64,000 nt of DNA from Ascidiella aspersa (lineage: Eukaryota). The notes beneath the pieces were generated by a model. The model was not told the origin of the DNA. It searched no databases and worked only from the letters and a program-made list of their open reading frames with translations. Below are positions 13,997 through 36,866 of this stretch, piece after piece. Position numbers and translations under genes: made by a program. Position 1 is the first letter of the stretch. Each line of letters starts with the position of its first letter. The DNA lies in the NCBI GenBank assembly GCA_963924565.1, contig OZ004611.1, forward strand, positions 29,512,001-29,576,000, read 5' to 3'.

Positions 13997-14160
13997 ACTG
14001 CCGAAGCAAGTACAATCGTTTACCAACTTTTTTCCTTATCAACGACCTCGTCGAAAAACGCCGACTCTTTGCGGAGAAGACCCGAATCGCCCAGCCAATT
14101 GATTTAGATGTGTCACGATGACGTCGGCAAAATTTCAATAACTCCTGGCCAGAAATCAAA

Positions 14161-14260
14161 NNNNNNNNNNNNNNNNNNNNNNNNNNNNNNNNNNNNNNNN
14201 NNNNNNNNNNNNNNNNNNNNNNNNNNNNNNNNNNNNNNNNNNNNNNNNNNNNNNNNNNNN
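14161..14260. other. Assembly gap (100 N, true size unknown)
   Basis: Run of exactly 100 n. Confidence 1.
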
Positions 14261-14468
14261 GGAAAGTTTTAGTTTTTTCCCCTTTCTGTAACTCTTTGGC
14301 CTATTCAGTTGTTACTGTAAATTTAACCTGTCCATCTTACGCAGTTGTCTAGTTAAACGATAGGCTTTCCTTTAAAACACGATGCTGTGGATAAAACCTG
14401 AACTTGGAGTAAATATTTTATGTCGTCATTTCACTTTGCGTAAATTAACCTTCTTTGAACATCTGCAG

Positions 14469-14605
14469 TTTGATCCACGGCTTCCTGAGCAAGGCCGACT
14501 GCCAGCGCATGTTGCGCGTGTGTGCCCCCGGCACGTTCATGTTTCGATTCAGCGACACTGTACTCGGAGCGCTGTCCATCTCCTGCTATACGGTTTGCCA
14601 GGACA
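14469..14605 (+). CDS. STAT: STAT-family transcription factor, internal exon (first half of SH2 domain)
   Basis: ctgcag acceptor at 14468 and gtaagt donor at 14606; hand translation LIHGFLSKADCQRMLRVCAPGTFMFRFSDTVLGALSISCYTVCQD matches the STAT SH2 pattern GFxxK...PGTFLLRFSDS..G.I. The ORF track shows a different frame here. Confidence 0.9.
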
Positions 14606-15214
14606 GTAAGTAACCTTTGCCCTAATTTGTATTATTGACATAGAACCCCACTAACGTTTGTGTAAAAATACCAAAAATGCTGTGTACTTTTTCCCATTTA
14701 CTGAACTTATTTTATCTGTTCTTTGCGATATAAAATCTTGCTTGGGCTGAGCGAAAAATAATTTTAATTAAACTTAACTGGAGCTTTTTATACGAACCTT
14801 AAAAAGCAATAATGAAAATGTCCACCTAGAACGAACCCTTTTGTTGAATACCCTTTGGTTAGTGTTTCCCAATCTGTTGGTCGGGAACCAAAATTGGGTT
14901 GCTGTTTGATTTGGTTGGGTCGACAACTGAAGTAGTTTTATATGCTCAGATTTGTAGGGATCAGTCAACAGCCATATTTCCTCAAAATTTGAAAAAATGC
15001 AGGTGAAACACGAAGACACGGCTCAAATAAATTAAATTCGAAATTATTTATGGTATTTGTGTGGTCTGTTTTGCTCACCTATGAAAATTTCAGTGCATAG
15101 AATGGGGTCGCCAAAGCTTTGCTGCTACATTTACGGTTAGCATTCAGGTCGCCGCGAAAAATGGTTGAAAGCCACTTATTTAGTTGGCTAAGTCTCATTG
15201 ATCGACTTTTTTAG

Positions 15215-15423
15215 GTTTCGAAGTGGGACACCTGCAGCCGGACACCATACGGAAATTCCAGCAGCGCAGTCTTCCCGACATGGTCAAGGACATTCAATAC
15301 CTTTACTTCCTTTATCCCAACACGCCAAAGGACCACGCTTTCGGTACCTACTACACGCCAGAACCCAGTAAGACTCAGGGCAATTCATATATGCGTATGG
15401 TTGTGGGTGAAATCTGTAAATGA
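15215..15423 (+). CDS. STAT: STAT-family transcription factor, following (probably last) exon: end of SH2 and tyrosine tail
   Basis: ttttttag acceptor; phase-1 join with the previous exon is in frame; FEVGHLQPDTIRKFQQRSLPDMVKDIQYLYFLYPNTPKDHAFGTYYTPEP matches the STAT5/6-type RSL.D...D...L.YP..PKD.AF..YY.P pattern; TGA at 15421, AATAAA at 15505. Confidence 0.88.
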
Positions 15424-15737
15424 TCGGATCCAATCTGATACTCAAGTGATCATCAGTGCGCCAATATTTGTTAGTTACACATTACGGGTTTATATTTCAA
15501 CTCAAATAAATTTGAAACTAAAACTGTTTATAGACCTAAATAGGCGAACTCCTATACTTCGACAATGCTTAATGGTCAAGTAAACTTTGACTTGAGTCTA
15601 TAAAATGCCGACACAACCAAAATCACTTTTGAAGTACTACAATTCATAATGCTAAAAAATTATATTAGTGTAAACTTACCGATGACGGCATGAGTTTTAA
15701 CGCCGATACCAATTGTCTGCAGAAAACTCTTTTGGGT

Positions 15738-16809
15738 AGACCCGAATCGCCCAGCCAATTGATTTAGATGTGTCACGATGACGTCGGCAAAATTTCAATA
15801 ACTCCTGGCCAGAAATCAAAGGCCAGCTAAAACGAGAGTCCGACTGCCAAATTCTCTTTTCAATTCTTTTCCAATTGTAATTCGTCGTGTCGTTTTGTCG
15901 AAAATCGCTTCCAAATGCACTCTTTTCGAGAGACGGCAAAATACGTTTTCGCTTGCCAAATCTTTCCACGGCCAACCAGCAAGTCTTGGGTAAGGCTGAG
16001 AGTTGTACTTCTTCCTGACTGACCCCAAACTTTATCGCTTCTCGGCTCTTTAGAGCTAAGATCAAGTGTAGTATCTGTTCTTCTCAGTTTAATACCTGGG
16101 ACGCAAGCGATTCGCTTGCTCTTTGTATTAACCTGATTTTTGGACAGGGAGCACGGTGCCGAAGCTTGCTTCGCCCTGCTCACGGGTTGTCCTGGTATTG
16201 CAGTACCTCCAGGCACGGCCCACATTCCCACACTGTGGGAATTCCTCTTCATCCAATTGAAAATTTGCTTCTTGTTTTGAAAAAAAGAAGCAAAACATAA
16301 ATCGATTTTTCGAGCGAAAATTGAAAAGAAAAATGGTGACCGATCGGCCAAAAATGACAAATTTTGTTCCTACAAGTTGATGCGGGGGGCTTATGGGGTA
16401 GCTATCCACAAAGAGTACGGGCGAGTAGTCGAGTAGGGCCTCGGGAAAAATCGTCACAACTCATACTTACCTGACGGGGGTCTTTAACCGTGATCACGTA
16501 GGCGGTTGGCCCAAGGCGAGGCCTTGCCATTGCACTTCGGCTTGGCTGACCCTTGCGATTACCCCAAATGCGGGTAACTCGGCCGTATAATTTCTGTTAG
16601 CGGGGTGTGCGTTCGCGCAAAACCCCATACAAACCTTAATCAGTTCTGAAAAAGCTTGGAAACGGCAAGAGCCGGTCGTAGCTGCAAAACGCTGAAAGAG
16701 CAGGAGGAAATTTTCGGGGGGCGTCTTCCGAGTAGCGTCGGCAGAATCGAGTAAAATGTCAAAATAAGGAACGCTTCACGATTTTGCGTGTCATCCTTGC
16801 GCAGGGGCC

Positions 16810-16849
<40 letters not shown>

Positions 16850-18002
16850 ACTGCCGAAGCAAGTACAATCGTTTACCAACTTTTTTCCTTATCAACGACC
16901 TCGTCGAAAAACGCCGACTCTTTGCGGAGAAGACCCGAATCGCCCAGCCAATTGATTTAGATGTGTCACGATGACGTCGGCAAAATTTCAATAACTCCTG
17001 GCCAGAAATCAAAGGCCAGCTAAAACGAGAGTCCGACTGCCAAATTCTCTTTTCAATTCTTTTCCAATTGTAATTCGTCGTGTCGTTTTGTCGAAAATCG
17101 CTTCCAAATGCACTCTTTTCGAGAGACGGCAAAATACGTTTTCGCTTGCCAAATCTTTCCACGGCCAACCAGCAAGTCTTGGGTAAGGCTGAGAGTTGTA
17201 CTTCTTCCTGACTGACCCCAAACTTTATCGCTTCTCGGCTCTTTAGAGCTAAGATCAAGTGTAGTATCTGTTCTTCTCAGTTTAATACCTGGGACGCAAG
17301 CGATTCGCTTGCTCTTTGTATTAACCTGATTTTTGGACAGGGAGCACGGTGCCGAAGCTTGCTTCGCCCTGCTCACGGGTTGTCCTGGTATTGCAGTACC
17401 TCCAGGCACGGCCCACATTCCCACACTGTGGGAATTCCTCTTCATCCAATTGAAAATTTGCTTCTTGTTTTGAAAAAAAGAAGCAAAACATAAATCGATT
17501 TTTCGAGCGAAAATTGAAAAGAAAAATGGTGACCGATCGGCCAAAAATGACAAATTTTGTTCCTACAAGTTGATGCGGGGGGCTTATGGGGTAGCTATCC
17601 ACAAAGAGTACGGGCGAGTAGTCGAGTAGGGCCTCGGGAAAAATCGTCACAACTCATACTTACCTGACGGGGGTCTTTAACCGTGATCACGTAGGCGGTT
17701 GGCCCAAGGCGAGGCCTTGCCATTGCACTTCGGCTTGGCTGACCCTTGCGATTACCCCAAATGCGGGTAACTCGGCCGTATAATTTCTGTTAGCGGGGTG
17801 TGCGTTCGCGCAAAACCCCATACAAACCTTAATCAGTTCTGAAAAAGCTTGGAAACGGCAAGAGCCGGTCGTAGCTGCAAAACGCTGAAAGAGCAGGAGG
17901 AAATTTTCGGGGGGCGTCTTCCGAGTAGCGTCGGCAGAATCGAGTAAAATGTCAAAATAAGGAACGCTTCACGATTTTGCGTGTCATCCTTGCGCAGGGG
18001 CC

Positions 18003-18042
<40 letters not shown>

Positions 18043-19195
18043 ACTGCCGAAGCAAGTACAATCGTTTACCAACTTTTTTCCTTATCAACGACCTCGTCGA
18101 AAAACGCCGACTCTTTGCGGAGAAGACCCGAATCGCCCAGCCAATTGATTTAGATGTGTCACGATGACGTCGGCAAAATTTCAATAACTCCTGGCCAGAA
18201 ATCAAAGGCCAGCTAAAACGAGAGTCCGACTGCCAAATTCTCTTTTCAATTCTTTTCCAATTGTAATTCGTCGTGTCGTTTTGTCGAAAATCGCTTCCAA
18301 ATGCACTCTTTTCGAGAGACGGCAAAATACGTTTTCGCTTGCCAAATCTTTCCACGGCCAACCAGCAAGTCTTGGGTAAGGCTGAGAGTTGTACTTCTTC
18401 CTGACTGACCCCAAACTTTATCGCTTCTCGGCTCTTTAGAGCTAAGATCAAGTGTAGTATCTGTTCTTCTCAGTTTAATACCTGGGACGCAAGCGATTCG
18501 CTTGCTCTTTGTATTAACCTGATTTTTGGACAGGGAGCACGGTGCCGAAGCTTGCTTCGCCCTGCTCACGGGTTGTCCTGGTATTGCAGTACCTCCAGGC
18601 ACGGCCCACATTCCCACACTGTGGGAATTCCTCTTCATCCAATTGAAAATTTGCTTCTTGTTTTGAAAAAAAGAAGCAAAACATAAATCGATTTTTCGAG
18701 CGAAAATTGAAAAGAAAAATGGTGACCGATCGGCCAAAAATGACAAATTTTGTTCCTACAAGTTGATGCGGGGGGCTTATGGGGTAGCTATCCACAAAGA
18801 GTACGGGCGAGTAGTCGAGTAGGGCCTCGGGAAAAATCGTCACAACTCATACTTACCTGACGGGGGTCTTTAACCGTGATCACGTAGGCGGTTGGCCCAA
18901 GGCGAGGCCTTGCCATTGCACTTCGGCTTGGCTGACCCTTGCGATTACCCCAAATGCGGGTAACTCGGCCGTATAATTTCTGTTAGCGGGGTGTGCGTTC
19001 GCGCAAAACCCCATACAAACCTTAATCAGTTCTGAAAAAGCTTGGAAACGGCAAGAGCCGGTCGTAGCTGCAAAACGCTGAAAGAGCAGGAGGAAATTTT
19101 CGGGGGGCGTCTTCCGAGTAGCGTCGGCAGAATCGAGTAAAATGTCAAAATAAGGAACGCTTCACGATTTTGCGTGTCATCCTTGCGCAGGGGCC

Positions 19196-19235
<40 letters not shown>

Positions 19236-20388
19236 ACTGCCGAAGCAAGTACAATCGTTTACCAACTTTTTTCCTTATCAACGACCTCGTCGAAAAACGC
19301 CGACTCTTTGCGGAGAAGACCCGAATCGCCCAGCCAATTGATTTAGATGTGTCACGATGACGTCGGCAAAATTTCAATAACTCCTGGCCAGAAATCAAAG
19401 GCCAGCTAAAACGAGAGTCCGACTGCCAAATTCTCTTTTCAATTCTTTTCCAATTGTAATTCGTCGTGTCGTTTTGTCGAAAATCGCTTCCAAATGCACT
19501 CTTTTCGAGAGACGGCAAAATACGTTTTCGCTTGCCAAATCTTTCCACGGCCAACCAGCAAGTCTTGGGTAAGGCTGAGAGTTGTACTTCTTCCTGACTG
19601 ACCCCAAACTTTATCGCTTCTCGGCTCTTTAGAGCTAAGATCAAGTGTAGTATCTGTTCTTCTCAGTTTAATACCTGGGACGCAAGCGATTCGCTTGCTC
19701 TTTGTATTAACCTGATTTTTGGACAGGGAGCACGGTGCCGAAGCTTGCTTCGCCCTGCTCACGGGTTGTCCTGGTATTGCAGTACCTCCAGGCACGGCCC
19801 ACATTCCCACACTGTGGGAATTCCTCTTCATCCAATTGAAAATTTGCTTCTTGTTTTGAAAAAAAGAAGCAAAACATAAATCGATTTTTCGAGCGAAAAT
19901 TGAAAAGAAAAATGGTGACCGATCGGCCAAAAATGACAAATTTTGTTCCTACAAGTTGATGCGGGGGGCTTATGGGGTAGCTATCCACAAAGAGTACGGG
20001 CGAGTAGTCGAGTAGGGCCTCGGGAAAAATCGTCACAACTCATACTTACCTGACGGGGGTCTTTAACCGTGATCACGTAGGCGGTTGGCCCAAGGCGAGG
20101 CCTTGCCATTGCACTTCGGCTTGGCTGACCCTTGCGATTACCCCAAATGCGGGTAACTCGGCCGTATAATTTCTGTTAGCGGGGTGTGCGTTCGCGCAAA
20201 ACCCCATACAAACCTTAATCAGTTCTGAAAAAGCTTGGAAACGGCAAGAGCCGGTCGTAGCTGCAAAACGCTGAAAGAGCAGGAGGAAATTTTCGGGGGG
20301 CGTCTTCCGAGTAGCGTCGGCAGAATCGAGTAAAATGTCAAAATAAGGAACGCTTCACGATTTTGCGTGTCATCCTTGCGCAGGGGCC

Positions 20389-20428
<40 letters not shown>

Positions 20429-21581
20429 ACTGCCGAAGCAAGTACAATCGTTTACCAACTTTTTTCCTTATCAACGACCTCGTCGAAAAACGCCGACTCT
20501 TTGCGGAGAAGACCCGAATCGCCCAGCCAATTGATTTAGATGTGTCACGATGACGTCGGCAAAATTTCAATAACTCCTGGCCAGAAATCAAAGGCCAGCT
20601 AAAACGAGAGTCCGACTGCCAAATTCTCTTTTCAATTCTTTTCCAATTGTAATTCGTCGTGTCGTTTTGTCGAAAATCGCTTCCAAATGCACTCTTTTCG
20701 AGAGACGGCAAAATACGTTTTCGCTTGCCAAATCTTTCCACGGCCAACCAGCAAGTCTTGGGTAAGGCTGAGAGTTGTACTTCTTCCTGACTGACCCCAA
20801 ACTTTATCGCTTCTCGGCTCTTTAGAGCTAAGATCAAGTGTAGTATCTGTTCTTCTCAGTTTAATACCTGGGACGCAAGCGATTCGCTTGCTCTTTGTAT
20901 TAACCTGATTTTTGGACAGGGAGCACGGTGCCGAAGCTTGCTTCGCCCTGCTCACGGGTTGTCCTGGTATTGCAGTACCTCCAGGCACGGCCCACATTCC
21001 CACACTGTGGGAATTCCTCTTCATCCAATTGAAAATTTGCTTCTTGTTTTGAAAAAAAGAAGCAAAACATAAATCGATTTTTCGAGCGAAAATTGAAAAG
21101 AAAAATGGTGACCGATCGGCCAAAAATGACAAATTTTGTTCCTACAAGTTGATGCGGGGGGCTTATGGGGTAGCTATCCACAAAGAGTACGGGCGAGTAG
21201 TCGAGTAGGGCCTCGGGAAAAATCGTCACAACTCATACTTACCTGACGGGGGTCTTTAACCGTGATCACGTAGGCGGTTGGCCCAAGGCGAGGCCTTGCC
21301 ATTGCACTTCGGCTTGGCTGACCCTTGCGATTACCCCAAATGCGGGTAACTCGGCCGTATAATTTCTGTTAGCGGGGTGTGCGTTCGCGCAAAACCCCAT
21401 ACAAACCTTAATCAGTTCTGAAAAAGCTTGGAAACGGCAAGAGCCGGTCGTAGCTGCAAAACGCTGAAAGAGCAGGAGGAAATTTTCGGGGGGCGTCTTC
21501 CGAGTAGCGTCGGCAGAATCGAGTAAAATGTCAAAATAAGGAACGCTTCACGATTTTGCGTGTCATCCTTGCGCAGGGGCC

Positions 21582-21621
<40 letters not shown>

Positions 21622-22774
21622 ACTGCCGAAGCAAGTACAATCGTTTACCAACTTTTTTCCTTATCAACGACCTCGTCGAAAAACGCCGACTCTTTGCGGA
21701 GAAGACCCGAATCGCCCAGCCAATTGATTTAGATGTGTCACGATGACGTCGGCAAAATTTCAATAACTCCTGGCCAGAAATCAAAGGCCAGCTAAAACGA
21801 GAGTCCGACTGCCAAATTCTCTTTTCAATTCTTTTCCAATTGTAATTCGTCGTGTCGTTTTGTCGAAAATCGCTTCCAAATGCACTCTTTTCGAGAGACG
21901 GCAAAATACGTTTTCGCTTGCCAAATCTTTCCACGGCCAACCAGCAAGTCTTGGGTAAGGCTGAGAGTTGTACTTCTTCCTGACTGACCCCAAACTTTAT
22001 CGCTTCTCGGCTCTTTAGAGCTAAGATCAAGTGTAGTATCTGTTCTTCTCAGTTTAATACCTGGGACGCAAGCGATTCGCTTGCTCTTTGTATTAACCTG
22101 ATTTTTGGACAGGGAGCACGGTGCCGAAGCTTGCTTCGCCCTGCTCACGGGTTGTCCTGGTATTGCAGTACCTCCAGGCACGGCCCACATTCCCACACTG
22201 TGGGAATTCCTCTTCATCCAATTGAAAATTTGCTTCTTGTTTTGAAAAAAAGAAGCAAAACATAAATCGATTTTTCGAGCGAAAATTGAAAAGAAAAATG
22301 GTGACCGATCGGCCAAAAATGACAAATTTTGTTCCTACAAGTTGATGCGGGGGGCTTATGGGGTAGCTATCCACAAAGAGTACGGGCGAGTAGTCGAGTA
22401 GGGCCTCGGGAAAAATCGTCACAACTCATACTTACCTGACGGGGGTCTTTAACCGTGATCACGTAGGCGGTTGGCCCAAGGCGAGGCCTTGCCATTGCAC
22501 TTCGGCTTGGCTGACCCTTGCGATTACCCCAAATGCGGGTAACTCGGCCGTATAATTTCTGTTAGCGGGGTGTGCGTTCGCGCAAAACCCCATACAAACC
22601 TTAATCAGTTCTGAAAAAGCTTGGAAACGGCAAGAGCCGGTCGTAGCTGCAAAACGCTGAAAGAGCAGGAGGAAATTTTCGGGGGGCGTCTTCCGAGTAG
22701 CGTCGGCAGAATCGAGTAAAATGTCAAAATAAGGAACGCTTCACGATTTTGCGTGTCATCCTTGCGCAGGGGCC

Positions 22775-22814
<40 letters not shown>

Positions 22815-23967
22815 ACTGCCGAAGCAAGTACAATCGTTTACCAACTTTTTTCCTTATCAACGACCTCGTCGAAAAACGCCGACTCTTTGCGGAGAAGACC
22901 CGAATCGCCCAGCCAATTGATTTAGATGTGTCACGATGACGTCGGCAAAATTTCAATAACTCCTGGCCAGAAATCAAAGGCCAGCTAAAACGAGAGTCCG
23001 ACTGCCAAATTCTCTTTTCAATTCTTTTCCAATTGTAATTCGTCGTGTCGTTTTGTCGAAAATCGCTTCCAAATGCACTCTTTTCGAGAGACGGCAAAAT
23101 ACGTTTTCGCTTGCCAAATCTTTCCACGGCCAACCAGCAAGTCTTGGGTAAGGCTGAGAGTTGTACTTCTTCCTGACTGACCCCAAACTTTATCGCTTCT
23201 CGGCTCTTTAGAGCTAAGATCAAGTGTAGTATCTGTTCTTCTCAGTTTAATACCTGGGACGCAAGCGATTCGCTTGCTCTTTGTATTAACCTGATTTTTG
23301 GACAGGGAGCACGGTGCCGAAGCTTGCTTCGCCCTGCTCACGGGTTGTCCTGGTATTGCAGTACCTCCAGGCACGGCCCACATTCCCACACTGTGGGAAT
23401 TCCTCTTCATCCAATTGAAAATTTGCTTCTTGTTTTGAAAAAAAGAAGCAAAACATAAATCGATTTTTCGAGCGAAAATTGAAAAGAAAAATGGTGACCG
23501 ATCGGCCAAAAATGACAAATTTTGTTCCTACAAGTTGATGCGGGGGGCTTATGGGGTAGCTATCCACAAAGAGTACGGGCGAGTAGTCGAGTAGGGCCTC
23601 GGGAAAAATCGTCACAACTCATACTTACCTGACGGGGGTCTTTAACCGTGATCACGTAGGCGGTTGGCCCAAGGCGAGGCCTTGCCATTGCACTTCGGCT
23701 TGGCTGACCCTTGCGATTACCCCAAATGCGGGTAACTCGGCCGTATAATTTCTGTTAGCGGGGTGTGCGTTCGCGCAAAACCCCATACAAACCTTAATCA
23801 GTTCTGAAAAAGCTTGGAAACGGCAAGAGCCGGTCGTAGCTGCAAAACGCTGAAAGAGCAGGAGGAAATTTTCGGGGGGCGTCTTCCGAGTAGCGTCGGC
23901 AGAATCGAGTAAAATGTCAAAATAAGGAACGCTTCACGATTTTGCGTGTCATCCTTGCGCAGGGGCC

Positions 23968-24007
<40 letters not shown>

Positions 24008-24401
24008 ACTGCCGAAGCAAGTACAATCGTTTACCAACTTTTTTCCTTATCAACGACCTCGTCGAAAAACGCCGACTCTTTGCGGAGAAGACCCGAATCG
24101 CCCAGCCAATTGATTTAGATGTGTCACGATGACGTCGGCAAAATTTCAATAACTCCTGGCCAGAAATCAAAGGCCAGCTAAAACGAGAGTCCGACTGCCA
24201 AATTCTCTTTTCAATTCTTTTCCAATTGTAATTCGTCGTGTCGTTTTGTCGAAAATCGCTTCCAAATGCACTCTTTTCGAGAGACGGCAAAATACGTTTT
24301 CGCTTGCCAAATCTTTCCACGGCCAACCAGCAAGTCTTGGGTAAGGCTGAGAGTTGTACTTCTTCCTGACTGACCCCAAACTTTATCGCTTCTCGGCTCT
24401 T
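15738..24401. repeat. 1193-bp U2-U1-U6 array, block 2 (7 intact copies of each gene)
   Basis: Exact match to unit starts at unit position 955 (agacccgaatcg); U2 starts at 16034+1193k; ends in U2 nt 1-17 at 24385-24401. Confidence 0.98.
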
Positions 24402-24573
24402 CAGAGACCTAACATTGGTGGTATACGAGCCTCATCCACGAGTTAACTTTGCAACTTCAATCGGGAAGGCAAAGAGTGAGCCCCTTCAGCTGGCCAAGTT
24501 CCTCGTAAACAGATTATACTTGTTAGGCGAGTTCCCCCGGTTGTCGTGTGGTATCGTAGTCACGTTCCTCGAC

Positions 24574-24760
24574 TTGGAGCCCGACGACTCTCTTTTGAGA
24601 GCGTGAGGCACAGATACTGGTTTGGAGCCCGACGACTCTCTGTTGAGAGCGTGAGGCGTAGATACTGGTTGGAAGCCCGACGACTCTCTGTTGAGAGCGT
24701 GAGGCCTAGTTTTTACTGGTTGGGAGCTCGACGACTATCTGTTGATAGCGTGAGGCACAG
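24574..24760 (+). repeat. 4 x 48-51 bp hairpin repeat in element 5' UTR (copy 2: about 38626-38812)
   Basis: GCCCGACGACTCTCTKTTGAGAGCGTGAGGC-type core recurring at about 24579, 24627, 24675, 24726. Confidence 0.9.
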
Positions 24761-24872
24761 TTTTCGTCCCCCGGTTTTCAGCGGCTCCTACGCGGCCATC
24801 CGCGCGCTCCGCCCCGGGCCTCTTCAGCAGCGGAGCTCCCGGCATTTTTTTGCCGCAGCCCTCACCCGCACT

Positions 24873-25455
24873 CCACCGGAGGTCCCTGCAGTTGCCGGTG
24901 TGCCATCCGGTGTTTGCTGCCCAGCTCTTGGCCTCACCCCACCGGAGGTCCCTGCAACGTTGGCCAGCTCTTCGGCCCTCTACCTCCAGTGTTCGCCGAC
25001 CCCCACCGGAGGTCCCTGCAGTTGCCGGTGTGCCATCCTGTGGTTGCTGCCCAGCTCTTGGCCTCACCCCACCGGAGGTCCCTGCAACGTTGGCCAGCTC
25101 TTCGGCCCTCTACCTCCAGTGTTCGCCGACCCCCACCGGAGGTCCCTGCAGTTGCCGGTCTGCCCTCTAGTGTCCACTGGTCGGCTCTCCACTGTACCCC
25201 ACCGGAGGTCCCTACAACTTCGGCAACTTTGTGGTGCTCTACCACCAGCGTCCAGCTACCCCCACCGGAGGTCCCTGCAACCTTGGACAGCCCAGCGGTC
25301 CTCTAACACCTGCACTCCGCCTCCACCACCGGAGGTCCCTGCACCTGCCCGCTGCTCTTAAGCCTTCACAACCGGAGGCTGTCGCAGCCGCCGGTCTGCC
25401 GTTTGTGCACCAGTTCCCGACCTTCACAACCGGAGGCTCTCGCAGCCGCCGGTCT
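24873..25455 (+). repeat. About 65-bp GC-rich repeat (10 ACCGGAGG cores, alternating 66/64-bp dimer) in element 5' UTR (copy 2: about 38925-39510)
   Basis: ACCGGAGG at 24875, 24941, 25005, 25071, 25135, 25201, 25264, 25328, 25371, 25429. Confidence 0.9.
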
Positions 25456-26059
25456 GTCGTAAGTTGCTGTACCCGCTGAAACCAGCCACCATCTCAACTG
25501 CGCCTCTCCCCACTCCATCTGCTCCCAACCAGCCTCACCGTCTCACCATCCGCTTCCAACCCATCCGCCTCAAAACCAGTTCTACCATCTGTTCCAAACC
25601 AGCCTGCTCATCCATCTGCCTCACCGCCTCACCATCTGCTCCAATCGCGACAACACCACCGAACGTGACTACGATCCACATCCATCTTCACCACACGACA
25701 ACCCACCACCACCTACGAAGAACTTGGCCCATCACCACCAGCAGCCCTTCACCCCTAACTCGCGGATTACACTCTGGATTAATACCATCAAAACACAAAG
25801 GATTATTCCACCTTTCATCGCTCTCAATCATCGCCGGATCCGACACCCTTCCCCCCCTGGTTGGCCCACATCGCCGGTCTCCTTCTAAACAAGTATTTTA
25901 GCATAACCTTCTATCCTTTTTGGCCGAGAAGCACCTAACTTTAATTTAATTTATCATACTCCCCCTCGGTTATATCTTTTAATACCCTCCCCCCCCTGCA
26001 ACTCAAGCAATTTTAATAAGGACTCGCGCCGGCTCTAAATTGTGCTTCCTCGGTCCCTC

Positions 26060-26573
26060 TACCAGTTTTATATCTTACCTTTTTATTATTACATTACATA
26101 CATTTTACTACTACATATTATTACATACGTCTCGCTCTTTTACAATTTTACTGTGCCACGACTACTCGCAGACTTATATTTTACCTTTTTATTATCACAT
26201 ATTATTACATAAATTTTACTATTACATATTATTACACATTATTACATACGTCTCGCTCTTTTACAATTTTACTGTGCCACGACTACTCGCAGACTTATAT
26301 TTTACCTTTTTATTATTACATATTATTACAAACATTTTATTATTACATATTACTACATATTATTACATACATTATATTATTACATATTATTACACATTAT
26401 TACATACGTCTCGCCCTTCTACAATTTTACTGTGCCACGACTACTCGCAGACTTATATTTTACCTTTTTATTATCACATATTATTACATACATTTTACTA
26501 TTACATACTATTACACATTATTACATACGTCTCGCTCTTTTACAATTTTACTGTGCCACGACTATTCGCAGAC
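26060..26573 (+). repeat. AT-rich compound repeat: (TATTACAYAT)n blocks alternating with 4 copies of a ~46-bp core ending TCGCAGACT (copy 2: about 40115-40627)
   Basis: Core CGTCTCGCTCTTTTACAATTTTACTGTGCCACGACTACTCGCAGACT near 26128, 26249, 26407, 26528. Confidence 0.9.
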
Positions 26574-26593
26574 TGTACACCGGTCCCAACGTC

Positions 26594-29500
26594 ATGAACG
26601 TTCAACCACCGCGTCGCAGGCTTCGCCCAGCAGTTCGTTCACGCGCGGATCAGGGGACGGCATCATCCAAACCAACCAAAGATGCCCCATCGCAGGAGGA
26701 AGCCCCACCCTTGTCGGTAACGTTTAGGGGGCCCGGGGATTCCGTGTTTCGGTGCGGGGTTAGTGGCTGTTCTATGGTCTCGGCAGCGCTCCAATCAGTC
26801 AAGCGCCATTTGGCATCTGTACATGGCTTGGCTGTTGGAGTGCTGGACGCGGCCTGTGGGAAGTGTTCCGCTTCCTTCAGGTCGCGTGGCTCCCTCATTA
26901 ACGTGAGGGACCATTACCGTGCCTGTGGAGCAGTCGCCCCCGCCGCTGCACCGCGGACTCCTCGGGCCTTTTGCTGCCCAGTCTGCGATAGTCGCTGGCC
27001 GTCTCTCGTAGCTGCCAAGTCCCACCATTACCAAAAGCACCCGGGCGGGCCGTCACGCAATAACAACAGCTTTGTGGTGGCCCCCGGTCTGTTATCACCT
27101 CGGCGTAGCATTAAACAACGCCCCTTTACTCTGAACGTGCGCTACGTCGACGCGGCTACCACCTATAAATGCCCCGTGCCGGCTTGCCCGAAAGGTAATG
27201 ACGGATACGCTAGAGTCCGAACATTAAAAACCCACCTCAGTACTTGTCACAAAATTAATAACGTCTTACTTAGGGTAGTATGTGGCAAGTGCGAGTGCGT
27301 CGTCGCCGACAAGGCTATGTCCTTATTGCCCGCCTCTTCGCACTTTAAATCATGTTCTGGCTCTGGCAAACCCCCGAGCATCCCGGTGCCCATACTCCCA
27401 CCCTCGCCCGCGAACCACTCTGTTGGGGAGGACTCTGATAGTTCTACAGTTGGCAAGGTCCCTTCGCTGATCTTCTATCAGTCGAAGGCTTCGATAAATA
27501 CCACCCCGCCCTCGGACAGTGAGTTTTTGTATGGCCACGTCTCTCCCCCAAGTGGGAGTTCTCACTGTTCTTCAGTAACGCTAATTTCCCCCATCGCTAC
27601 GGTTGCGCCGGTGTTGTCGTACGCCGATGCAGTCCGTACGCCATCTCCAAAGCTGTCACAGATAGATCTAGTTACCCCACCAAACCTACCAACCGTGGGC
27701 ATTCAGAATTCCTTTTCGGCAGAGTGCGTCGACCCTTACCAGCCTTCCGAGGTTTCGAGCGTCATCAACGCGACCTCACCATCTGGTCCCCCTTCGTTCA
27801 CGCTCCTTAGGAGCTGGCTAAACACTCCTTGCACCGGGAGTACCAGGCGCGTTCCGGTAGAGATCCCGCAGATCTCTCCTTCTCGCCTCGCTCGACTGGC
27901 AGTTACAATTAGGGATCACTATCGTTCAAGGGTTAACGTCGCCACGGGGGTCTCGCCTGATCCGAAGCCACCGAAAGCGAGCGTGTTTCTCTCTGGAGAA
28001 ACACCTGGCCGCGAAGTGGTGAAAGTGAAGGAGGGGCCGCCAGTTCAAGGAGGGTGGACGGATCGTCCGACACAGCAACTTCTTGTGTCGAACCTTCTTT
28101 CTGCCGGAGAACTGGACCAGGCTACATCACCTCCCGAGGTGGTGGAGCCGTGCGTTGCCGAGGCTACCGTTGCGGGAGCGGGGGAGGTGTCGGCGGCAGG
28201 GAACTGCCCGTCGCCTGAACCCGTTCCGGGCGCGCCAGAGCGACCGGCCGTGAAGACCAGGTGTGAATGGGAGGCCTTGTTGCCGAGCAGTCCGCCTGTG
28301 TCCGATCAGGTCCCAGTACCCGTGGTTGGAGACGTGTCCCACCGAAGTCCTGTTGCAAGCTCTGAAAATGCGTCAAGCTCATTGCCTGTTAGATGTAACG
28401 TTAACGACCCACCTTTAACCGACCCCAGTAATGACGACTTGAGAGCTCGCCTTGCGCATGTAATTGACGCCCATTCTTCCCCCGATAGTTTCGGCGAGCT
28501 CGAGCACGCATTAGAGGAGTGGACCAAACTCGCTGGCTCTGTAGACATTACGCGTAAGCAGCGCAAGCCTCGATACAACCGCGGTGCTCAGCACCGTGCG
28601 ACCACCAACCGCGAGCGCGGCCACCCCAACAAGACAACCATACCAATAAAGGGGGCGGCCGCCAAAGGGCAGTGCTTGCGCTCAGCGTTCTGGCGAGACC
28701 AGCGAGCTACGGTTCGCCGCATCACGGACGGGTTAAAAGGGGAGGTCAAATGTGGGATAGCTCCTCGAGTCATCGAGGAGAAGTTTCGCGCCGACCTTAA
28801 GGCACCGGGGGCGTACGAGCATCTCGAGCCGGTACCAAGCTGGATGCGAGCCACGACGGGAGGGGGAGATGCGTCATCGGGGGCTTCTGGCGGTGTGGAC
28901 TCTGCTCCAATATCTCCGCGCGAGGTGGAGATGGTTCTCCAGTCCGTTAACACTGCTTCGGCGGCAGGATCTGACGGGTTGTCCTATGGCTTTTGGAAGG
29001 CTCTAGATCCCAAGGGCATCGTCCTTGCGGAGCTTTTCGAGAGGTGTAGGATCGCTCGTCGGATTCCCGCGCAGTGGCGTAAGTCGAAAGTCACTCTGAT
29101 CTGCAAGGATCCGGGCGGCGACCTCGACGACGTCTCGAACTGGAGACCCATTTCCATCTGTCGCAACTTGTACAAGTTGTACGCGGCGGTGTTGGCGCGG
29201 CGTTTGCAGCGCTGGGCGCTCGACGGTGGCGTTATTTCTCCTGAACAGAAGGGTTTCATGCCAGTGGAAGGAACGTTCGAGCATGTTTTCGTGTTGGACT
29301 CAGCCTGGGTAGATGCACGACAGGCGAAGAAGGACATCTTCGTCGCCTGGCTCGACGTCAAGAACGCCTTCGGCAGTATCCGTCACGATTGTATTCGTAG
29401 CATAATGGACGAGCTTCAGGTTCCTGACTACTTGATTGAGTGCGTTGCTGATATCTACGTTGGTAACACGTGTGTCGTTCGCACGGCGGGTGGTGTTACC

Positions 29501-31309
29501 AACGAGATACCAGTAGGGCGAGGGGTACGCCAAGGCTGCCCCTTGTCCGGCCTCGTATTCAATCTGGTGGCCGAGGTTCTTGTTAGAGGGGTCAAAGCTC
29601 GCGCCGGTTGCGGATACAGATTCGATTGCGCTCCTAATGTCTTTTCCCAAGTGCTGGCATACGCTGACGACGGGTGTCTCATCTCGAGCTCGAGGTCACA
29701 GATGTGCGAGCAGCTGAAAGTGTGTGAGGAGTTCGCCGGCTGGGCAGGTATCCGTTTTAACCCGAAAAAATGCCGCATAATGAACCAGGTGCTGGTTGGA
29801 AGTCGCCGACAACGGGATCCGCAGCCTTTCTCGCTCTCGGGCGAGGAGGTCAAGGTGATTGGTCTGGGCGAATTCTACCGCTACTTGGGAGTGCGGCAGG
29901 GATACCTTCCTGACACTCGATCGAACACCACCCTCGAGTTGTCTGCCGAGCGAATCAAGCGACTCTTTGAGTCGCCCCTCACGCCACACCAGAAGCTGCT
30001 GGCACTGAAGCGATTCGAGCTCCCCCGTCTGAGCTTCATCTTGAGGTTGCGGCATTTTCCGGTAAAGGAGTTGAGGAAGGTGGACTCTACGGTGCGGCGT
30101 TGCGTGCGCATTTCACTCCGCCTCCCAACACGAACGTGCGTGGCTTTTTACCACACGTCAGCAGACAGCGGAGGCCTGGGGATCCCGTCGATTGCCGCCG
30201 AGGGCGACATACTGGCGGTGACACAGGCCTTCAAAATGCTGACAGCACCGGACTGGCGGGTGCGCGCCGTGGCCGTGGGTCGACTCGAATCTCTCTCGAA
30301 ACGGATGGCCAAAGCTGAAAGTGTCGATGCCGGTGCGATGGCAGCTTTCATATCAGGGGGCAACGTCAGTGGTAACGGGTGCGGAGCGGGCGGAAGTCTG
30401 GAACGAGACTTGTTTACGTTTGTACGCAAGGCCTCGGAAAGGATCGATGTTCAATTCGTCGCGGGCGCTGACGGGCAGTTTTCTGTGACGTCTGGTGACA
30501 AGACGTTATCCCCCAGCAACCGGGCAGTATTTACCAGGACCCTCCACGCCTTACAATCAAAGCGTTGGAGGGAAGTGTGGGCCAGTCATCCAGACCAAGG
30601 TAAGACCGTAGGGGCCCACACCCAATACGGTTATTCGAACCACTGGTTGAAGAACCCCGGGGCTCTGACTATTCCAGAGCGCATTTTCGCGATGAAAGCA
30701 CGCCTCAACCTCCTTCCTGTCAAGAAGGTTCGGGAACGATTTCACGGGGGACAGTCAGACGTTAGGTGCTGCAGATGCGGCAGTTCGGCCGAGACACTTC
30801 CCCACGTACTCAACCACTGTGTTCCCGTCATGCCCCAAATCCTATCTCGGCACGACGCCATACAGGGGGAAGTGTTGCGCCACGTACCTTCAGGGACCTT
30901 CACCAAGGTTTCTTGTGACCGAGTTTGCCGGGAGCACGCCGATGCCACGGGTGAGAACCTCCGGCCAGACTTGATTGTCGAGAGCGCCGACAGGTTCTTA
31001 GTCGTGGACTTTGCGTGCCCTTTCGAAAACGGCCAAGTTGCCCTTACCGCTGCTGCGGCCCGTAAGCACCAAAAGTACAGGGAGTTGTGTGGAAACTTGG
31101 CCCGTGTTTCCAAGAAGCGAGTCCTTTTCCACACCTTCATCATCGGCTCCCTGGGCAGCTATGCTCAAGGCAACAATTCCACCCTCAGCGCCTTGGGCAT
31201 CACGGGCCGTCGTATGACGGAGGTAGCCAGAGCATGCTCAGCTCTGGCTATCAAGGGTAGCCACCACGTGTGGCAATCTTGGTGCAGGGGGATTGTTACC
31301 AAACCTTAA
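26594..31309 (+). CDS. Retrotransposon polyprotein: N-terminal zinc fingers, reverse transcriptase, CCHC knuckle, restriction-like endonuclease (1571 aa from first ATG)
   Basis: SAAGSDGL, NWRPISI, QKGF, WLDVKNAFGSI, GVRQGCPLS, LAYADD; CRCGSSAETLPHVLNHC; RHD; RPDLIV..VVDFACPFE..KHQKY. The track start at 26432 is a GTG inside the AT-rich repeat; first ATG is 26594. Confidence 0.95.
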   Translation: MNVQPPRRRLRPAVRSRADQGTASSKPTKDAPSQEEAPPLSVTFRGPGDSVFRCGVSGCSMVSAALQSVKRHLASVHGLAVGVLDAACGKCSASFRSRGSLINVRDHYRACGAVAPAAAPRTPRAFCCPVCDSRWPSLVAAKSHHYQKHPGGPSRNNNSFVVAPGLLSPRRSIKQRPFTLNVRYVDAATTYKCPVPACPKGNDGYARVRTLKTHLSTCHKINNVLLRVVCGKCECVVADKAMSLLPASSHFKSCSGSGKPPSIPVPILPPSPANHSVGEDSDSSTVGKVPSLIFYQSKASINTTPPSDSEFLYGHVSPPSGSSHCSSVTLISPIATVAPVLSYADAVRTPSPKLSQIDLVTPPNLPTVGIQNSFSAECVDPYQPSEVSSVINATSPSGPPSFTLLRSWLNTPCTGSTRRVPVEIPQISPSRLARLAVTIRDHYRSRVNVATGVSPDPKPPKASVFLSGETPGREVVKVKEGPPVQGGWTDRPTQQLLVSNLLSAGELDQATSPPEVVEPCVAEATVAGAGEVSAAGNCPSPEPVPGAPERPAVKTRCEWEALLPSSPPVSDQVPVPVVGDVSHRSPVASSENASSSLPVRCNVNDPPLTDPSNDDLRARLAHVIDAHSSPDSFGELEHALEEWTKLAGSVDITRKQRKPRYNRGAQHRATTNRERGHPNKTTIPIKGAAAKGQCLRSAFWRDQRATVRRITDGLKGEVKCGIAPRVIEEKFRADLKAPGAYEHLEPVPSWMRATTGGGDASSGASGGVDSAPISPREVEMVLQSVNTASAAGSDGLSYGFWKALDPKGIVLAELFERCRIARRIPAQWRKSKVTLICKDPGGDLDDVSNWRPISICRNLYKLYAAVLARRLQRWALDGGVISPEQKGFMPVEGTFEHVFVLDSAWVDARQAKKDIFVAWLDVKNAFGSIRHDCIRSIMDELQVPDYLIECVADIYVGNTCVVRTAGGVTNEIPVGRGVRQGCPLSGLVFNLVAEVLVRGVKARAGCGYRFDCAPNVFSQVLAYADDGCLISSSRSQMCEQLKVCEEFAGWAGIRFNPKKCRIMNQVLVGSRRQRDPQPFSLSGEEVKVIGLGEFYRYLGVRQGYLPDTRSNTTLELSAERIKRLFESPLTPHQKLLALKRFELPRLSFILRLRHFPVKELRKVDSTVRRCVRISLRLPTRTCVAFYHTSADSGGLGIPSIAAEGDILAVTQAFKMLTAPDWRVRAVAVGRLESLSKRMAKAESVDAGAMAAFISGGNVSGNGCGAGGSLERDLFTFVRKASERIDVQFVAGADGQFSVTSGDKTLSPSNRAVFTRTLHALQSKRWREVWASHPDQGKTVGAHTQYGYSNHWLKNPGALTIPERIFAMKARLNLLPVKKVRERFHGGQSDVRCCRCGSSAETLPHVLNHCVPVMPQILSRHDAIQGEVLRHVPSGTFTKVSCDRVCREHADATGENLRPDLIVESADRFLVVDFACPFENGQVALTAAAARKHQKYRELCGNLARVSKKRVLFHTFIIGSLGSYAQGNNSTLSALGITGRRMTEVARACSALAIKGSHHVWQSWCRGIVTKP

Positions 31310-32511
31310 ACCATCCTTTGCAAGCGCAGACTGGCACCACACAAACACAAACCGGACGATCACGGCGGCGGGGCATCAACTTAACCGCAAATAAACCAGC
31401 TCACCAGTACGTTCATCAATCAGCCAACAACCCAGCCCACTCACCACCCCATCACCTCGGAAAACTTCAGCCCTTTGACCCCAGCTCTATCCACGCCCCG
31501 CCGCCAACCCCTCCTCGCACTCCAATGTTAAAGCTGGCCTCCTCCAATCAAAACCCACTCCTGATAGTTTCGCCGAGGTGCTCCCAACTCTTCAACCGCG
31601 CGGCAGCCGGGGACCAACTCTCCAAACACTTTAACGTTCCAACGTTCGTCTATCGTCCCCGGCCAACACCTTCAACAGTTCCGCCCGCCACACCAGTCGA
31701 ATCATCGTCAACGGCAAAAGGGCGGATGCCGCGCGGTCAACACCTCACCTCTTCACACCAATGGGGCCGGCTAGGAAGCCTGCCCCCGAACTGTCTGGCA
31801 CCAACACTGGAGCACCTCGGCCCCCCAACCAACACGGAGGCCAGCAGGCCGGCGCACGTCGCCGACCCACTAATTCGCACCATCCCCACCCGGTTTGCAC
31901 AACACTTAGCTTTTAAATCTTTTTTTTTGTCTTAGGTAGCTCGTTTTTAACCGCTTTACCGCCCCAAAATTGCACTTACTAGCAATTAAAGCACTTACCG
32001 CACTTAAACCTCTTTCAAGTTTTAAATGCACCCCCCCTTTTTTTATATATATGCAAAGTTCCGAACTATTTTTTATATTTACATTGTTTTTAAATATTTT
32101 TATACCCACACCCCGTGTACTTTTTTCGCCACCCTCACCCCTTTCCACTCACTAGGCACACTTCCAAAATATGTATCTAAATTACACAATACCATACCCG
32201 AGCCCAGTCTGCGCCAGTCCCTCTGTTCCTCCTGCGACGTCTCCTGCAAGCCCTACCATCGGCGGGCCCCACAATTCACTTAGCTTATAACTTAACTAAT
32301 CTGGCCCTAACTTTTTTAAATTTACCTTTTTTTTCCACAGTAATCATCAAATCTTAACCAAACCAAACCCACAAATTCTATCACCCATCGCCGTTACGGC
32401 GGTGGAGGCCGAGCGTGCAACGCACAATACTTATTGCCGGCGAAGCCTGTTTATATTGTCGTTTTCGTGTTTTATCGCCGTCAACACAATAAACCGGTGT
32501 ACAGTCAAAAG

Positions 32512-32661
32512 TCTGTTCTTCTCAGTTTAATACCTGGGACGCAAGCGATTCGCTTGCTCTTTGTATTAACCTGATTTTTGGACAGGGAGCACGGTGCCGA
32601 AGCTTGCTTCGCCCTGCTCACGGGTTGTCCTGGTATTGCAGTACCTCCAGGCACGGCCCAC
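32512..32661 (+). pseudogene. U2: 3' remnant (nt 41 to end) of U2 disrupted by element copy 1
   Basis: U2 resumes at TCTGTTCTTCTCAG directly after element end GTCAAAAG. Confidence 0.93.
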
Positions 32662-33247
32662 ATTCCCACACTGTGGGAATTCCTCTTCATCCAATTGAAA
32701 ATTTGCTTCTTGTTTTGAAAAAAAGAAGCAAAACATAAATCGATTTTTCGAGCGAAAATTGAAAAGAAAAATGGTGACCGATCGGCCAAAAATGACAAAT
32801 TTTGTTCCTACAAGTTGATGCGGGGGGCTTATGGGGTAGCTATCCACAAAGAGTACGGGCGAGTAGTCGAGTAGGGCCTCGGGAAAAATCGTCACAACTC
32901 ATACTTACCTGACGGGGGTCTTTAACCGTGATCACGTAGGCGGTTGGCCCAAGGCGAGGCCTTGCCATTGCACTTCGGCTTGGCTGACCCTTGCGATTAC
33001 CCCAAATGCGGGTAACTCGGCCGTATAATTTCTGTTAGCGGGGTGTGCGTTCGCGCAAAACCCCATACAAACCTTAATCAGTTCTGAAAAAGCTTGGAAA
33101 CGGCAAGAGCCGGTCGTAGCTGCAAAACGCTGAAAGAGCAGGAGGAAATTTTCGGGGGGCGTCTTCCGAGTAGCGTCGGCAGAATCGAGTAAAATGTCAA
33201 AATAAGGAACGCTTCACGATTTTGCGTGTCATCCTTGCGCAGGGGCC

Positions 33248-33287
<40 letters not shown>

Positions 33288-34440
33288 ACTGCCGAAGCAA
33301 GTACAATCGTTTACCAACTTTTTTCCTTATCAACGACCTCGTCGAAAAACGCCGACTCTTTGCGGAGAAGACCCGAATCGCCCAGCCAATTGATTTAGAT
33401 GTGTCACGATGACGTCGGCAAAATTTCAATAACTCCTGGCCAGAAATCAAAGGCCAGCTAAAACGAGAGTCCGACTGCCAAATTCTCTTTTCAATTCTTT
33501 TCCAATTGTAATTCGTCGTGTCGTTTTGTCGAAAATCGCTTCCAAATGCACTCTTTTCGAGAGACGGCAAAATACGTTTTCGCTTGCCAAATCTTTCCAC
33601 GGCCAACCAGCAAGTCTTGGGTAAGGCTGAGAGTTGTACTTCTTCCTGACTGACCCCAAACTTTATCGCTTCTCGGCTCTTTAGAGCTAAGATCAAGTGT
33701 AGTATCTGTTCTTCTCAGTTTAATACCTGGGACGCAAGCGATTCGCTTGCTCTTTGTATTAACCTGATTTTTGGACAGGGAGCACGGTGCCGAAGCTTGC
33801 TTCGCCCTGCTCACGGGTTGTCCTGGTATTGCAGTACCTCCAGGCACGGCCCACATTCCCACACTGTGGGAATTCCTCTTCATCCAATTGAAAATTTGCT
33901 TCTTGTTTTGAAAAAAAGAAGCAAAACATAAATCGATTTTTCGAGCGAAAATTGAAAAGAAAAATGGTGACCGATCGGCCAAAAATGACAAATTTTGTTC
34001 CTACAAGTTGATGCGGGGGGCTTATGGGGTAGCTATCCACAAAGAGTACGGGCGAGTAGTCGAGTAGGGCCTCGGGAAAAATCGTCACAACTCATACTTA
34101 CCTGACGGGGGTCTTTAACCGTGATCACGTAGGCGGTTGGCCCAAGGCGAGGCCTTGCCATTGCACTTCGGCTTGGCTGACCCTTGCGATTACCCCAAAT
34201 GCGGGTAACTCGGCCGTATAATTTCTGTTAGCGGGGTGTGCGTTCGCGCAAAACCCCATACAAACCTTAATCAGTTCTGAAAAAGCTTGGAAACGGCAAG
34301 AGCCGGTCGTAGCTGCAAAACGCTGAAAGAGCAGGAGGAAATTTTCGGGGGGCGTCTTCCGAGTAGCGTCGGCAGAATCGAGTAAAATGTCAAAATAAGG
34401 AACGCTTCACGATTTTGCGTGTCATCCTTGCGCAGGGGCC

Positions 34441-34480
<40 letters not shown>

Positions 34481-35633
34481 ACTGCCGAAGCAAGTACAAT
34501 CGTTTACCAACTTTTTTCCTTATCAACGACCTCGTCGAAAAACGCCGACTCTTTGCGGAGAAGACCCGAATCGCCCAGCCAATTGATTTAGATGTGTCAC
34601 GATGACGTCGGCAAAATTTCAATAACTCCTGGCCAGAAATCAAAGGCCAGCTAAAACGAGAGTCCGACTGCCAAATTCTCTTTTCAATTCTTTTCCAATT
34701 GTAATTCGTCGTGTCGTTTTGTCGAAAATCGCTTCCAAATGCACTCTTTTCGAGAGACGGCAAAATACGTTTTCGCTTGCCAAATCTTTCCACGGCCAAC
34801 CAGCAAGTCTTGGGTAAGGCTGAGAGTTGTACTTCTTCCTGACTGACCCCAAACTTTATCGCTTCTCGGCTCTTTAGAGCTAAGATCAAGTGTAGTATCT
34901 GTTCTTCTCAGTTTAATACCTGGGACGCAAGCGATTCGCTTGCTCTTTGTATTAACCTGATTTTTGGACAGGGAGCACGGTGCCGAAGCTTGCTTCGCCC
35001 TGCTCACGGGTTGTCCTGGTATTGCAGTACCTCCAGGCACGGCCCACATTCCCACACTGTGGGAATTCCTCTTCATCCAATTGAAAATTTGCTTCTTGTT
35101 TTGAAAAAAAGAAGCAAAACATAAATCGATTTTTCGAGCGAAAATTGAAAAGAAAAATGGTGACCGATCGGCCAAAAATGACAAATTTTGTTCCTACAAG
35201 TTGATGCGGGGGGCTTATGGGGTAGCTATCCACAAAGAGTACGGGCGAGTAGTCGAGTAGGGCCTCGGGAAAAATCGTCACAACTCATACTTACCTGACG
35301 GGGGTCTTTAACCGTGATCACGTAGGCGGTTGGCCCAAGGCGAGGCCTTGCCATTGCACTTCGGCTTGGCTGACCCTTGCGATTACCCCAAATGCGGGTA
35401 ACTCGGCCGTATAATTTCTGTTAGCGGGGTGTGCGTTCGCGCAAAACCCCATACAAACCTTAATCAGTTCTGAAAAAGCTTGGAAACGGCAAGAGCCGGT
35501 CGTAGCTGCAAAACGCTGAAAGAGCAGGAGGAAATTTTCGGGGGGCGTCTTCCGAGTAGCGTCGGCAGAATCGAGTAAAATGTCAAAATAAGGAACGCTT
35601 CACGATTTTGCGTGTCATCCTTGCGCAGGGGCC

Positions 35634-35673
<40 letters not shown>

Positions 35674-36826: not shown

Positions 36827-36866
<40 letters not shown>

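What the first reader, a model, noticed from the sequence alone, without database searches (positions are those of the whole stretch)
24385..24575. Element 5' leader looks like a decayed U2 snRNA that replaces the host gene's 5' end
Both full-length copies switch from host U2 at exactly nt 17/18, and host nt 18-40 are missing. The element then reads CAGAGACCTAACATTGGTGGTATA versus U2 TAGAGCTAAGATCAAGTGTAGTA. At nt ~155 it reads GGTTGTCGTGTGGTATCGTAGTCACGTTCC versus U2 nt ~152 GGTTGTCCTGGTATTGCAGTACCTCC, which is collinear and can still form a stem-IV-like hairpin. The middle aligns poorly but folds into nested stems (CCTAACA/TGTTAGG, GTATA/TATAC, ACGAG/CTCGT, AACTT/AAGTT, GAAGG/CCTTC). Inference: the element is transcribed from the U2 promoter, carries an anciently captured U2-like leader, and uses the conserved first 17 nt for homology-directed 5' joining. 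That would explain the identical 23-bp replacement.
Basis: partly seen in the sequence, partly recalled or inferred. Interest (0 to 1): 0.7.

Follow-up and report, generated by a model that had tools for sequence, protein, structure and literature searches.

The report
Retrotransposon borrowing the U2 gene's start
A jumping gene that always lands at one spot in the U2 splicing-RNA genes of a probable sea squirt begins with the first 22 letters of U2, which it likely uses to borrow the gene's promoter and to splice its front end in precisely, but the rest of its leader is not a detectable decayed U2 copy.

Summary
The window is a 1,193-bp U2/U1/U6 array holding an 8.1-kb RLE retrotransposon of the ascidian YURE branch of Utopia. 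The junction is real. All 5 copies with a 5' end start at U2 +1, match U2 at 21 of 22 nt (T18C, in 0 of 40 empty genes) and lack nt 23-40.

Reads from another individual show a truncated copy that keeps U2 nt 1-38, and a full-length copy with U2 nt 6-22 duplicated (3 reads each). So the template likely carries the U2 5' end and joins by homology, as published for R2/28S.

A whole decayed U2 is not supported: no Rfam or host-U2 model hit beyond the head, scoring-dependent p-values (0.003-0.64), no Sm site, and no repeat in a diverged copy.

New here: the 2,209-nt 5' UTR has no ATG (11-20 expected), which fits a capped RNA scanned from the U2 start. The leader also has stems with compensatory changes in one diverged copy. 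No RNA test was possible. The scan noted a Utopia element in another genome before (e1-9937192), but not this leader.

The parts
24025..24384 (+). Host spacer upstream of U2, presumed to hold the U2 promoter (inferred); identical to empty units
   Evidence: unit 23192-24384 is 100% identical to the neighbouring units; no difference upstream of the two window copies
24385..24406 (+). U2 nt 1-22 head of the element, with a private T>C at nt 18 (24402)
   Evidence: 21 of 22; C18 in 5 of 5 element heads, 0 of 40 empty U2 genes
24407..24575 (+). Element-specific structured leader; U2 ancestry not demonstrable; two competing helices both covary in one diverged copy
24574..24765 (+). Four tandem ~47-nt hairpin repeats; the fourth has a both-sided change in the stem
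   Evidence: sequence; fold z -3.7 against 200 shuffles; repeats inflate this
24385..26593 (+). 2,209-nt 5' UTR without any ATG
   Evidence: 0 observed, shuffle means 19.8 (whole) and 11.4 (200-nt blocks), 0 of 500 shuffles as low; the same in 4 of 4 intact copies
26594..31309 (+). Single ORF, 1,571 aa from the first ATG: five N-terminal zinc-finger-like motifs, RT, CCHC knuckle, PD-(D/E)-type RLE motif
   Evidence: RVT_1 E 6.8e-31; motifs by pattern match
31310..32511 (+). 3' UTR with AATAAA at 32488-32493, ending at the U2 target
32512..32666 (+). U2 nt 41-195, the 3' part of the disrupted host gene
38437..46559 (+). Second full-length copy, same 5' and 3' junctions, 99.4% identical
60098..63170 (+). 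5'-truncated copy; 3' end at the U2 site, 5' end joined at U1 nt ~28-31 of the preceding unit
58..64000 (.). Host array of 1,193-bp units: U2 (+), U1 (+), U6 (-)

Best explanation
This is the 5' end of a U2-targeting Utopia/YURE retrotransposon that starts with U2 nt 1-22; it is likely transcribed from the host U2 promoter as a capped RNA, and its U2 head likely anneals to the cut target so that new full-length copies replace host nt 18-40 with the element's own version. Shown: the target site (U2 nt 40/41), the uniform head with C18, two alternative junction types in reads, and the ATG-free 5' UTR. Inferred: (1) Pol II starts at U2 +1 and reads through, because the Sm site and U2 3' end now lie 8 kb downstream; (2) the RNA is translated by scanning to the first AUG at 26594; (3) the protein nicks at nt 40/41, reverse-transcribes, and cuts the top strand near nt 35-40; (4) cDNA reaching the RNA 5' end pairs with target nt 1-17, so the 'deletion' is copied from the template, not cut out; (5) each new copy thereby inherits a U2 promoter. 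Leader nt 23-41 may be U2 nt 23-40 decayed in place. The rest of the leader is best read as an element-made structured 5' UTR, most likely a binding site for the element's own protein.
For:: 5 of 5 heads carry C18 and 0 of 40 empty U2 genes do. (DNA run X17, 3 reads, 3 starts): U2 nt 1-38 joined to element position 25197, so a truncated copy shows no 18-40 loss. (3 reads, 2 starts, at least 64 letters on each side): U2 nt 1-35, two letters, then the element from U2 nt 6 into the leader, so the template held the U2 head. Three reads are about one allele's coverage (1,936 Mb read / 309 Mb genome = 6x); 0 ATG in 2,209 nt, while the reverse strand (48 vs 47 expected) and the 3' UTR (6 vs 6) are normal, and the decayed copy has gained ATGs; the first 416 nt alone have 0 vs 3.2 expected (P 0.02); no Sm motif in the leader. 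(PMC3774820): R2 RNAs that keep upstream 28S sequence give uniform junctions, propagate small deletions and substitutions, and occasionally give tandem duplications; protein in a 100/100 clade with Ciona and Clavelina proteins.
Against: No RNA evidence: run X18 laid 0 reads on the stretch, which is no test. Each alternative junction is one event seen in 3 reads from about 1% of one run. The four intact copies are 99.25-99.8% identical to the first and sit in a homogenised array, so they need not be independent insertions. The window's own truncated copy has a large target deletion back to U1, which the model does not explain. ATG depletion in the first 191 nt alone is not significant (P 0.21). 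From general knowledge (not checked here), snRNA promoters make poor mRNA in vertebrates, and ascidians trans-splice many mRNAs.
Confidence: 0.68

Rival explanations
1. The whole 190-nt leader is an anciently captured full-length U2 that has decayed and refolded.
For: Collinear short matches at nt 23-41 and nt 155-176; p 0.0075-0.045 under cheap-gap scoring; 0 of 94 element tiles score as high under two schemes; similar length; Phytophthora Utopia copies have intact U2 genes upstream (PMC4640811).
Against: No hit with Rfam U2 or the host U2 model; p 0.15-0.64 under stricter gaps; the diverged copy L007 does not repeat the signal (p 0.16-0.44); no Sm site; the covarying helices are not U2's stems.
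Confidence: 0.17
2. One founding insertion lost nt 18-40 through a staggered cut, and all copies arose from it by unequal crossing-over in the array; the RNA carries no U2 head.
For: Copies are nearly identical and clustered within about 70 kb; Kojima and Jurka explain Utopia 5' deletions by an upstream top-strand cut.
Against: The truncated insertion keeping nt 1-38 and the insertion with a duplicated head; element copies differ from each other more than their flanking units do.
Confidence: 0.1
3. The leader is a self-cleaving ribozyme, or a two-state switch, that processes a U2 or array co-transcript as in R2.
For: Two mutually exclusive helices use the same 3' strand and both covary in L007: 5 of 7 pairs and 3 of 3 pairs. 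R2 uses 5' HDV-like ribozymes.
Against: No Rfam ribozyme hit; 0 HDV-like folds with my descriptor, strict or relaxed, and no hammerhead core (the descriptor was not validated on a positive control). The duplicated head starts at nt 4-6, so the RNA end is near +1 and needs no cut.
Confidence: 0.1

Closest known systems
Utopia, U2-targeting RLE non-LTR retrotransposons of the NeSL clade (Kojima and Jurka 2015, PMC4640811)
   Same: Same 3' insertion site (their nt 39 = host nt 41 here); one ORF with N-terminal zinc fingers, RT, CCHC and RLE; strict U2 specificity; no target-site duplication.
   Different: In the text I read, 5' boundaries are called variable and attributed to the top-strand cut; a carried U2 head, promoter use and an ATG-free leader are not discussed. 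Their Fig. 1C (5' junctions) is an image I could not see.
YURE elements of Ciona (YURECi, YURE-2_Cis, YURE_CSa)
   Same: Nearest named proteins are from Ciona (Q76IM9 / BAC82601.1, 49%) and Clavelina (50%) over the RT region, in one 100/100 clade. That BAC82601.1 is YURECi is recalled, not confirmed by a call.
   Different: Ciona YURE is only occasionally U2-linked, and then about 21 nt further downstream (S1 Fig part 5). Here 7 of 7 listed 3' ends are at the canonical Utopia site, as is the relative L049.
R2 elements with ribozyme cleavage upstream in 28S (Eickbush et al. 2013, PMC3774820)
   Same: Host sequence left on the RNA 5' end, uniform junctions, inherited small deletions and substitutions, occasional tandem duplication of the carried piece.
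   Different: R2 is cut out of a Pol I co-transcript by an HDV-like ribozyme and lacks a cap. Here the carried piece is the gene's own first nucleotides, no ribozyme was found, and the RNA is likely capped.
SINEU (Kojima 2015, PMC4494074) and Keno
   Same: SINEU has U1/U2-derived heads and may use upstream promoters; Keno targets the same U2 site.
   Different: SINEU is non-autonomous and Tx1-mobilised; Keno has an APE endonuclease.

Membership tests
Utopia/YURE (NeSL clade) | 3' end at the conserved U2 site | tested here: met
   7 of 7 3' junctions matched by the pattern in fetched DNA; relative L049
Utopia/YURE (NeSL clade) | Single ORF: N-terminal zinc fingers, RT, CCHC, RLE | tested here: met
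   (zinc-finger and RLE motifs by pattern match only)
Utopia/YURE (NeSL clade) | RT groups with Utopia/YURE | tested here: met
   100/100 clade with the Ciona and Clavelina proteins among 27 rows (26 of 120 listed hits chosen by hand); no named NeSL-1 or R2 reference in the tree
Utopia/YURE (NeSL clade) | No Myb domain (separates it from R2; PMC13188248) | tested here: inconclusive
   Pfam shows none, but R2 Myb domains may escape Pfam; no structure predicted
U2 snRNA homologue (leader nt 23-191) | Significant match to a U2 covariance model | tested here: not met
U2 snRNA homologue (leader nt 23-191) | Sm site and intact branch-point pairing sequence | tested here: not met
   (no Sm motif); branch-point sequence altered
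U2 snRNA homologue (leader nt 23-191) | Primary-sequence similarity above shuffles | tested here: inconclusive
   p 0.0075-0.64 by scoring scheme; not repeated in L007
R2-type homology-primed 5' joining | Uniform full-length junctions with inherited variants | tested here: met
   5 of 5 heads; independence of the copies not shown
R2-type homology-primed 5' joining | Occasional tandem duplication of the carried host piece | tested here: met
   one event, 3 reads, 2 starts
R2-type homology-primed 5' joining | RNA 5' end lies in host sequence | not testable with these tools
   RNA run X18 gave 0 reads
HDV-like ribozyme | Nested double pseudoknot with L3 motif and catalytic C | tested here: not met
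   (own descriptor, no positive control)
HDV-like ribozyme | Self-cleavage in vitro | not testable with these tools
   bench test

The most novel reading that the evidence does not exclude
An early-branching retrotransposon turns a spliceosomal snRNA gene into an mRNA gene. It keeps the U2 promoter and first nucleotides, drops the Sm site, sends the ribosome scanning across a 2.2-kb AUG-free leader, and regenerates its promoter at every jump by homologous 5' joining. Its leader is a captured U2 that has been refolded into a new two-state RNA.
Probability: 0.15. Interest if true: 0.7.

Novelty: new variant of a known kind. Interest (0 to 1): 0.38.

Why it matters
How Utopia elements are transcribed and how their 5' ends join is not addressed in the papers I found (searches). 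This intact, array-resident family makes both questions testable. It extends the R2 heteroduplex model to a Pol II snRNA target without a ribozyme. It also places the ascidian YURE branch at the canonical Utopia site, supporting Kojima and Jurka's view that YURE's ancestor was U2-specific. The striking headline, a whole decayed U2, is not established, which keeps the score moderate.

Tried and rejected
U2 homology of the leader: Rfam, host U2 model and shuffles with U1, U6, reversed and reverse-complement controls gave nothing robust. Ribozymes: Rfam models and my HDV and hammerhead scans found nothing. Leader relatives: 24 metagenome loci were fetched. Blastn of the leader against all 24 found no match. 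A sequence-only model found 0 hits in 18 sources: 10 of those loci and 8 genome stretches. The best locus, L049, has its 5' region interrupted by other sequence. In the own genome only L005, L006 and L007 are diverged leader copies. Expression: no RNA holder listed; RNA run X18 laid 0 reads, which is no test. A survey of junctions along the whole element in raw reads was not obtained, so junction types rest alone. Two isolated U2 heads elsewhere on the contig are not element copies. Six of the eight parts of the Utopia paper's S1 Fig were seen only through a term search, and its figures not at all; they may bear on the 5' junction comparison.

Full report
SETTING. The window is a tandem array of 1,193-bp units, each with U2 (+), U1 (+) and U6 (-) genes. 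Three U2 genes are interrupted by an 8.1-kb element: 24385-32511, 38437-46559 and a 5'-truncated copy at 60098-63170. Its single ORF (first ATG 26594, stop 31309, 1,571 aa) has an RT domain, five zinc-finger-like motifs, a CCHC knuckle and an RLE-type motif. The nearest named proteins are from Clavelina and Ciona (49-50% over the RT region), in a 100/100 clade, so the host is probably an ascidian. All 7 of the 3' junctions matched in fetched DNA lie at U2 nt 41. This is the Utopia site of Kojima and Jurka 2015 (PMC4640811; main text parts 1-4 of 5, S2 Fig whole, S1 Fig part 5 of 8 and term searches). A relative in a metagenome contig (L049) ends at the same site.

THE JUNCTION. The genome holds five copies with a 5' end: four intact and one decayed. 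All start at U2 +1 behind host upstream sequence. The match to U2 is 21 of 22 nt with T>C at nt 18. C18 is in 5 of 5 element heads and 0 of 40 empty U2 genes in the 144 kb examined. A sixth, rearranged fragment (L006) begins at nt 13 behind U1 upstream sequence.

WHY THE JUNCTION IS UNIFORM. Raw DNA reads of another individual, judged from its SNPs (run X17, about 1% of the run, about 6x), show two other forms. In one, U2 nt 1-38 is joined to element position 25197: a 5'-truncated copy without the deletion (3 reads, 3 starts). In the other, U2 nt 1-35 and two letters are followed by the element starting at U2 nt 6 and running into the leader (3 reads, 2 starts, at least 64 letters on each side). 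Together these say that the top strand is cut near nt 35-40 and that the copied template includes the U2 head. The loss of nt 18-40 is then best explained as template-directed replacement. Eickbush et al. 2013 (PMC3774820; abstract and 12 passages) describe the same pattern for R2. Against this, each form is a single event, the intact copies (99.25-99.8% identical to the first) may not be independent insertions, and the window's truncated copy is joined far upstream in U1.

IS THE LEADER A DECAYED U2? Rfam gave no U2 match on 24340-24800 at E<=10. A model built from host U2 with filters off found 8 chance-level matches in the element from 24403 on, none in the leader, one weak hit when the shared head was included (6.1 bits), and nothing over the L007 leader among 11 matches. 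Pairwise scores against shuffles were borderline: p 0.0075-0.20 and 0.012-0.64 for nt 23-191, and down to 0.003 when nt 18-22 are included. With cheap gaps, none of 94 other element tiles scored as well, which keeps the idea alive. The independent copy L007 gave p 0.16-0.44. Nt 23-45 alone gave p 0.09-0.55; a decayed remnant of U2 nt 23-40 in place is plausible and is what the R2 model predicts. There is no Sm motif. Verdict: unsupported, not excluded.

WHAT THE LEADER IS. One diverged homologue exists: L007 (77% over nt 100-182, E 4e-7), not flanked by U2 and about 100 nt from a Penelope-like RT fragment (motif recognised from memory). It keeps the outer stem, nt 24-30 with 137-143, with 5 of 7 pairs changed on both sides (anchored by hand). 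It also keeps a competing short helix on the same 3' strand with 3 of 3 pairs changed (12 of 500 shuffles as high). This points to a conserved and possibly two-state RNA structure, but rests on one sequence. No ribozyme was found.

TRANSCRIPTION AND TRANSLATION. The 2,209 nt from U2 +1 to the ORF contain no ATG. Shuffles give 19.8 (whole), 11.4 (blocks) and 6.8-9.1 (repeats removed), and 0 of 500 reach zero. The reverse strand and the 3' UTR are normal, 4 of 4 intact copies agree, and the decayed copy has ATGs. The depletion is seen in 24385-24800 (P 0.02) and in two of three later blocks, but not in the first 191 nt alone (P 0.21). This fits a capped RNA scanned from near the U2 start. An AATAAA lies 18 nt before the 3' end. 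None of this was tested on RNA: no RNA holder was listed and run X18 laid 0 reads.

COMPARISON AND VERDICT. The element is a new member of Utopia/YURE. It differs from Ciona YURE in using the canonical site strictly. The 5' joining works like R2's, with the host gene's own first nucleotides instead of a ribozyme-cut rRNA piece. Five literature searches and passages of PMC13188248 and PMC4494074 (6 passages each) showed no account of a Utopia leader or promoter; subscription papers and Repbase reports were not searchable. Observation partly confirmed; interpretation partly supported; new variant of a known kind; interest 0.38.

Noticed in passing
G000:C5:29596526 (+, L018) and G000:C5:29779370 (-, L073): A second, different LINE with a zinc-knuckle ORF1 and an APE-type endonuclease (Tx1/L1-like; motifs recognised from memory) starts at U1 nt 27/28 in two places, with related 5' ends. 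The 2015 Utopia paper lists only the DNA transposon Dada-U1 as targeting U1, so a U1-targeting LINE may be new. Both copies are broken.
   Followed up: partly
window 60098-60101: The 5'-truncated copy is joined at the same U1 position (nt ~28-31), with loss of about 770 bp of array; possibly a cut by the U1-targeting element's enzyme.
   Followed up: partly
window 24574-24765: Four ~47-nt hairpin repeats directly after the leader, with a both-sided change in the fourth; three in the decayed copy.
   Followed up: partly
window 14161-14260: A 100-N assembly gap inside the array, followed by about 1.5 kb of non-array DNA. Read depth in X17 (about 1,100-1,460 at 6x) suggests about 200 units per haploid genome in that individual, against about 45 assembled.
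   Followed up: partly
L007 (G000:C2:37037210-37037340): A lone diverged copy of the leader between a (TG)n tract and a Penelope-like RT fragment, with no U2 or element ORF nearby.
   Followed up: partly
G000:C5:27215128 and G000:C5:16783052: U2 nt 1-19 fused to unrelated DNA, and an inverted-repeat fragment of U2 nt 1-97.
   Followed up: no
L049:2590-2620 and near 9590: Short stretches resembling ascidian spliced-leader RNA genes (recognised from memory) flank the U2-inserted relative, next to other LINE sequence.
   Followed up: no
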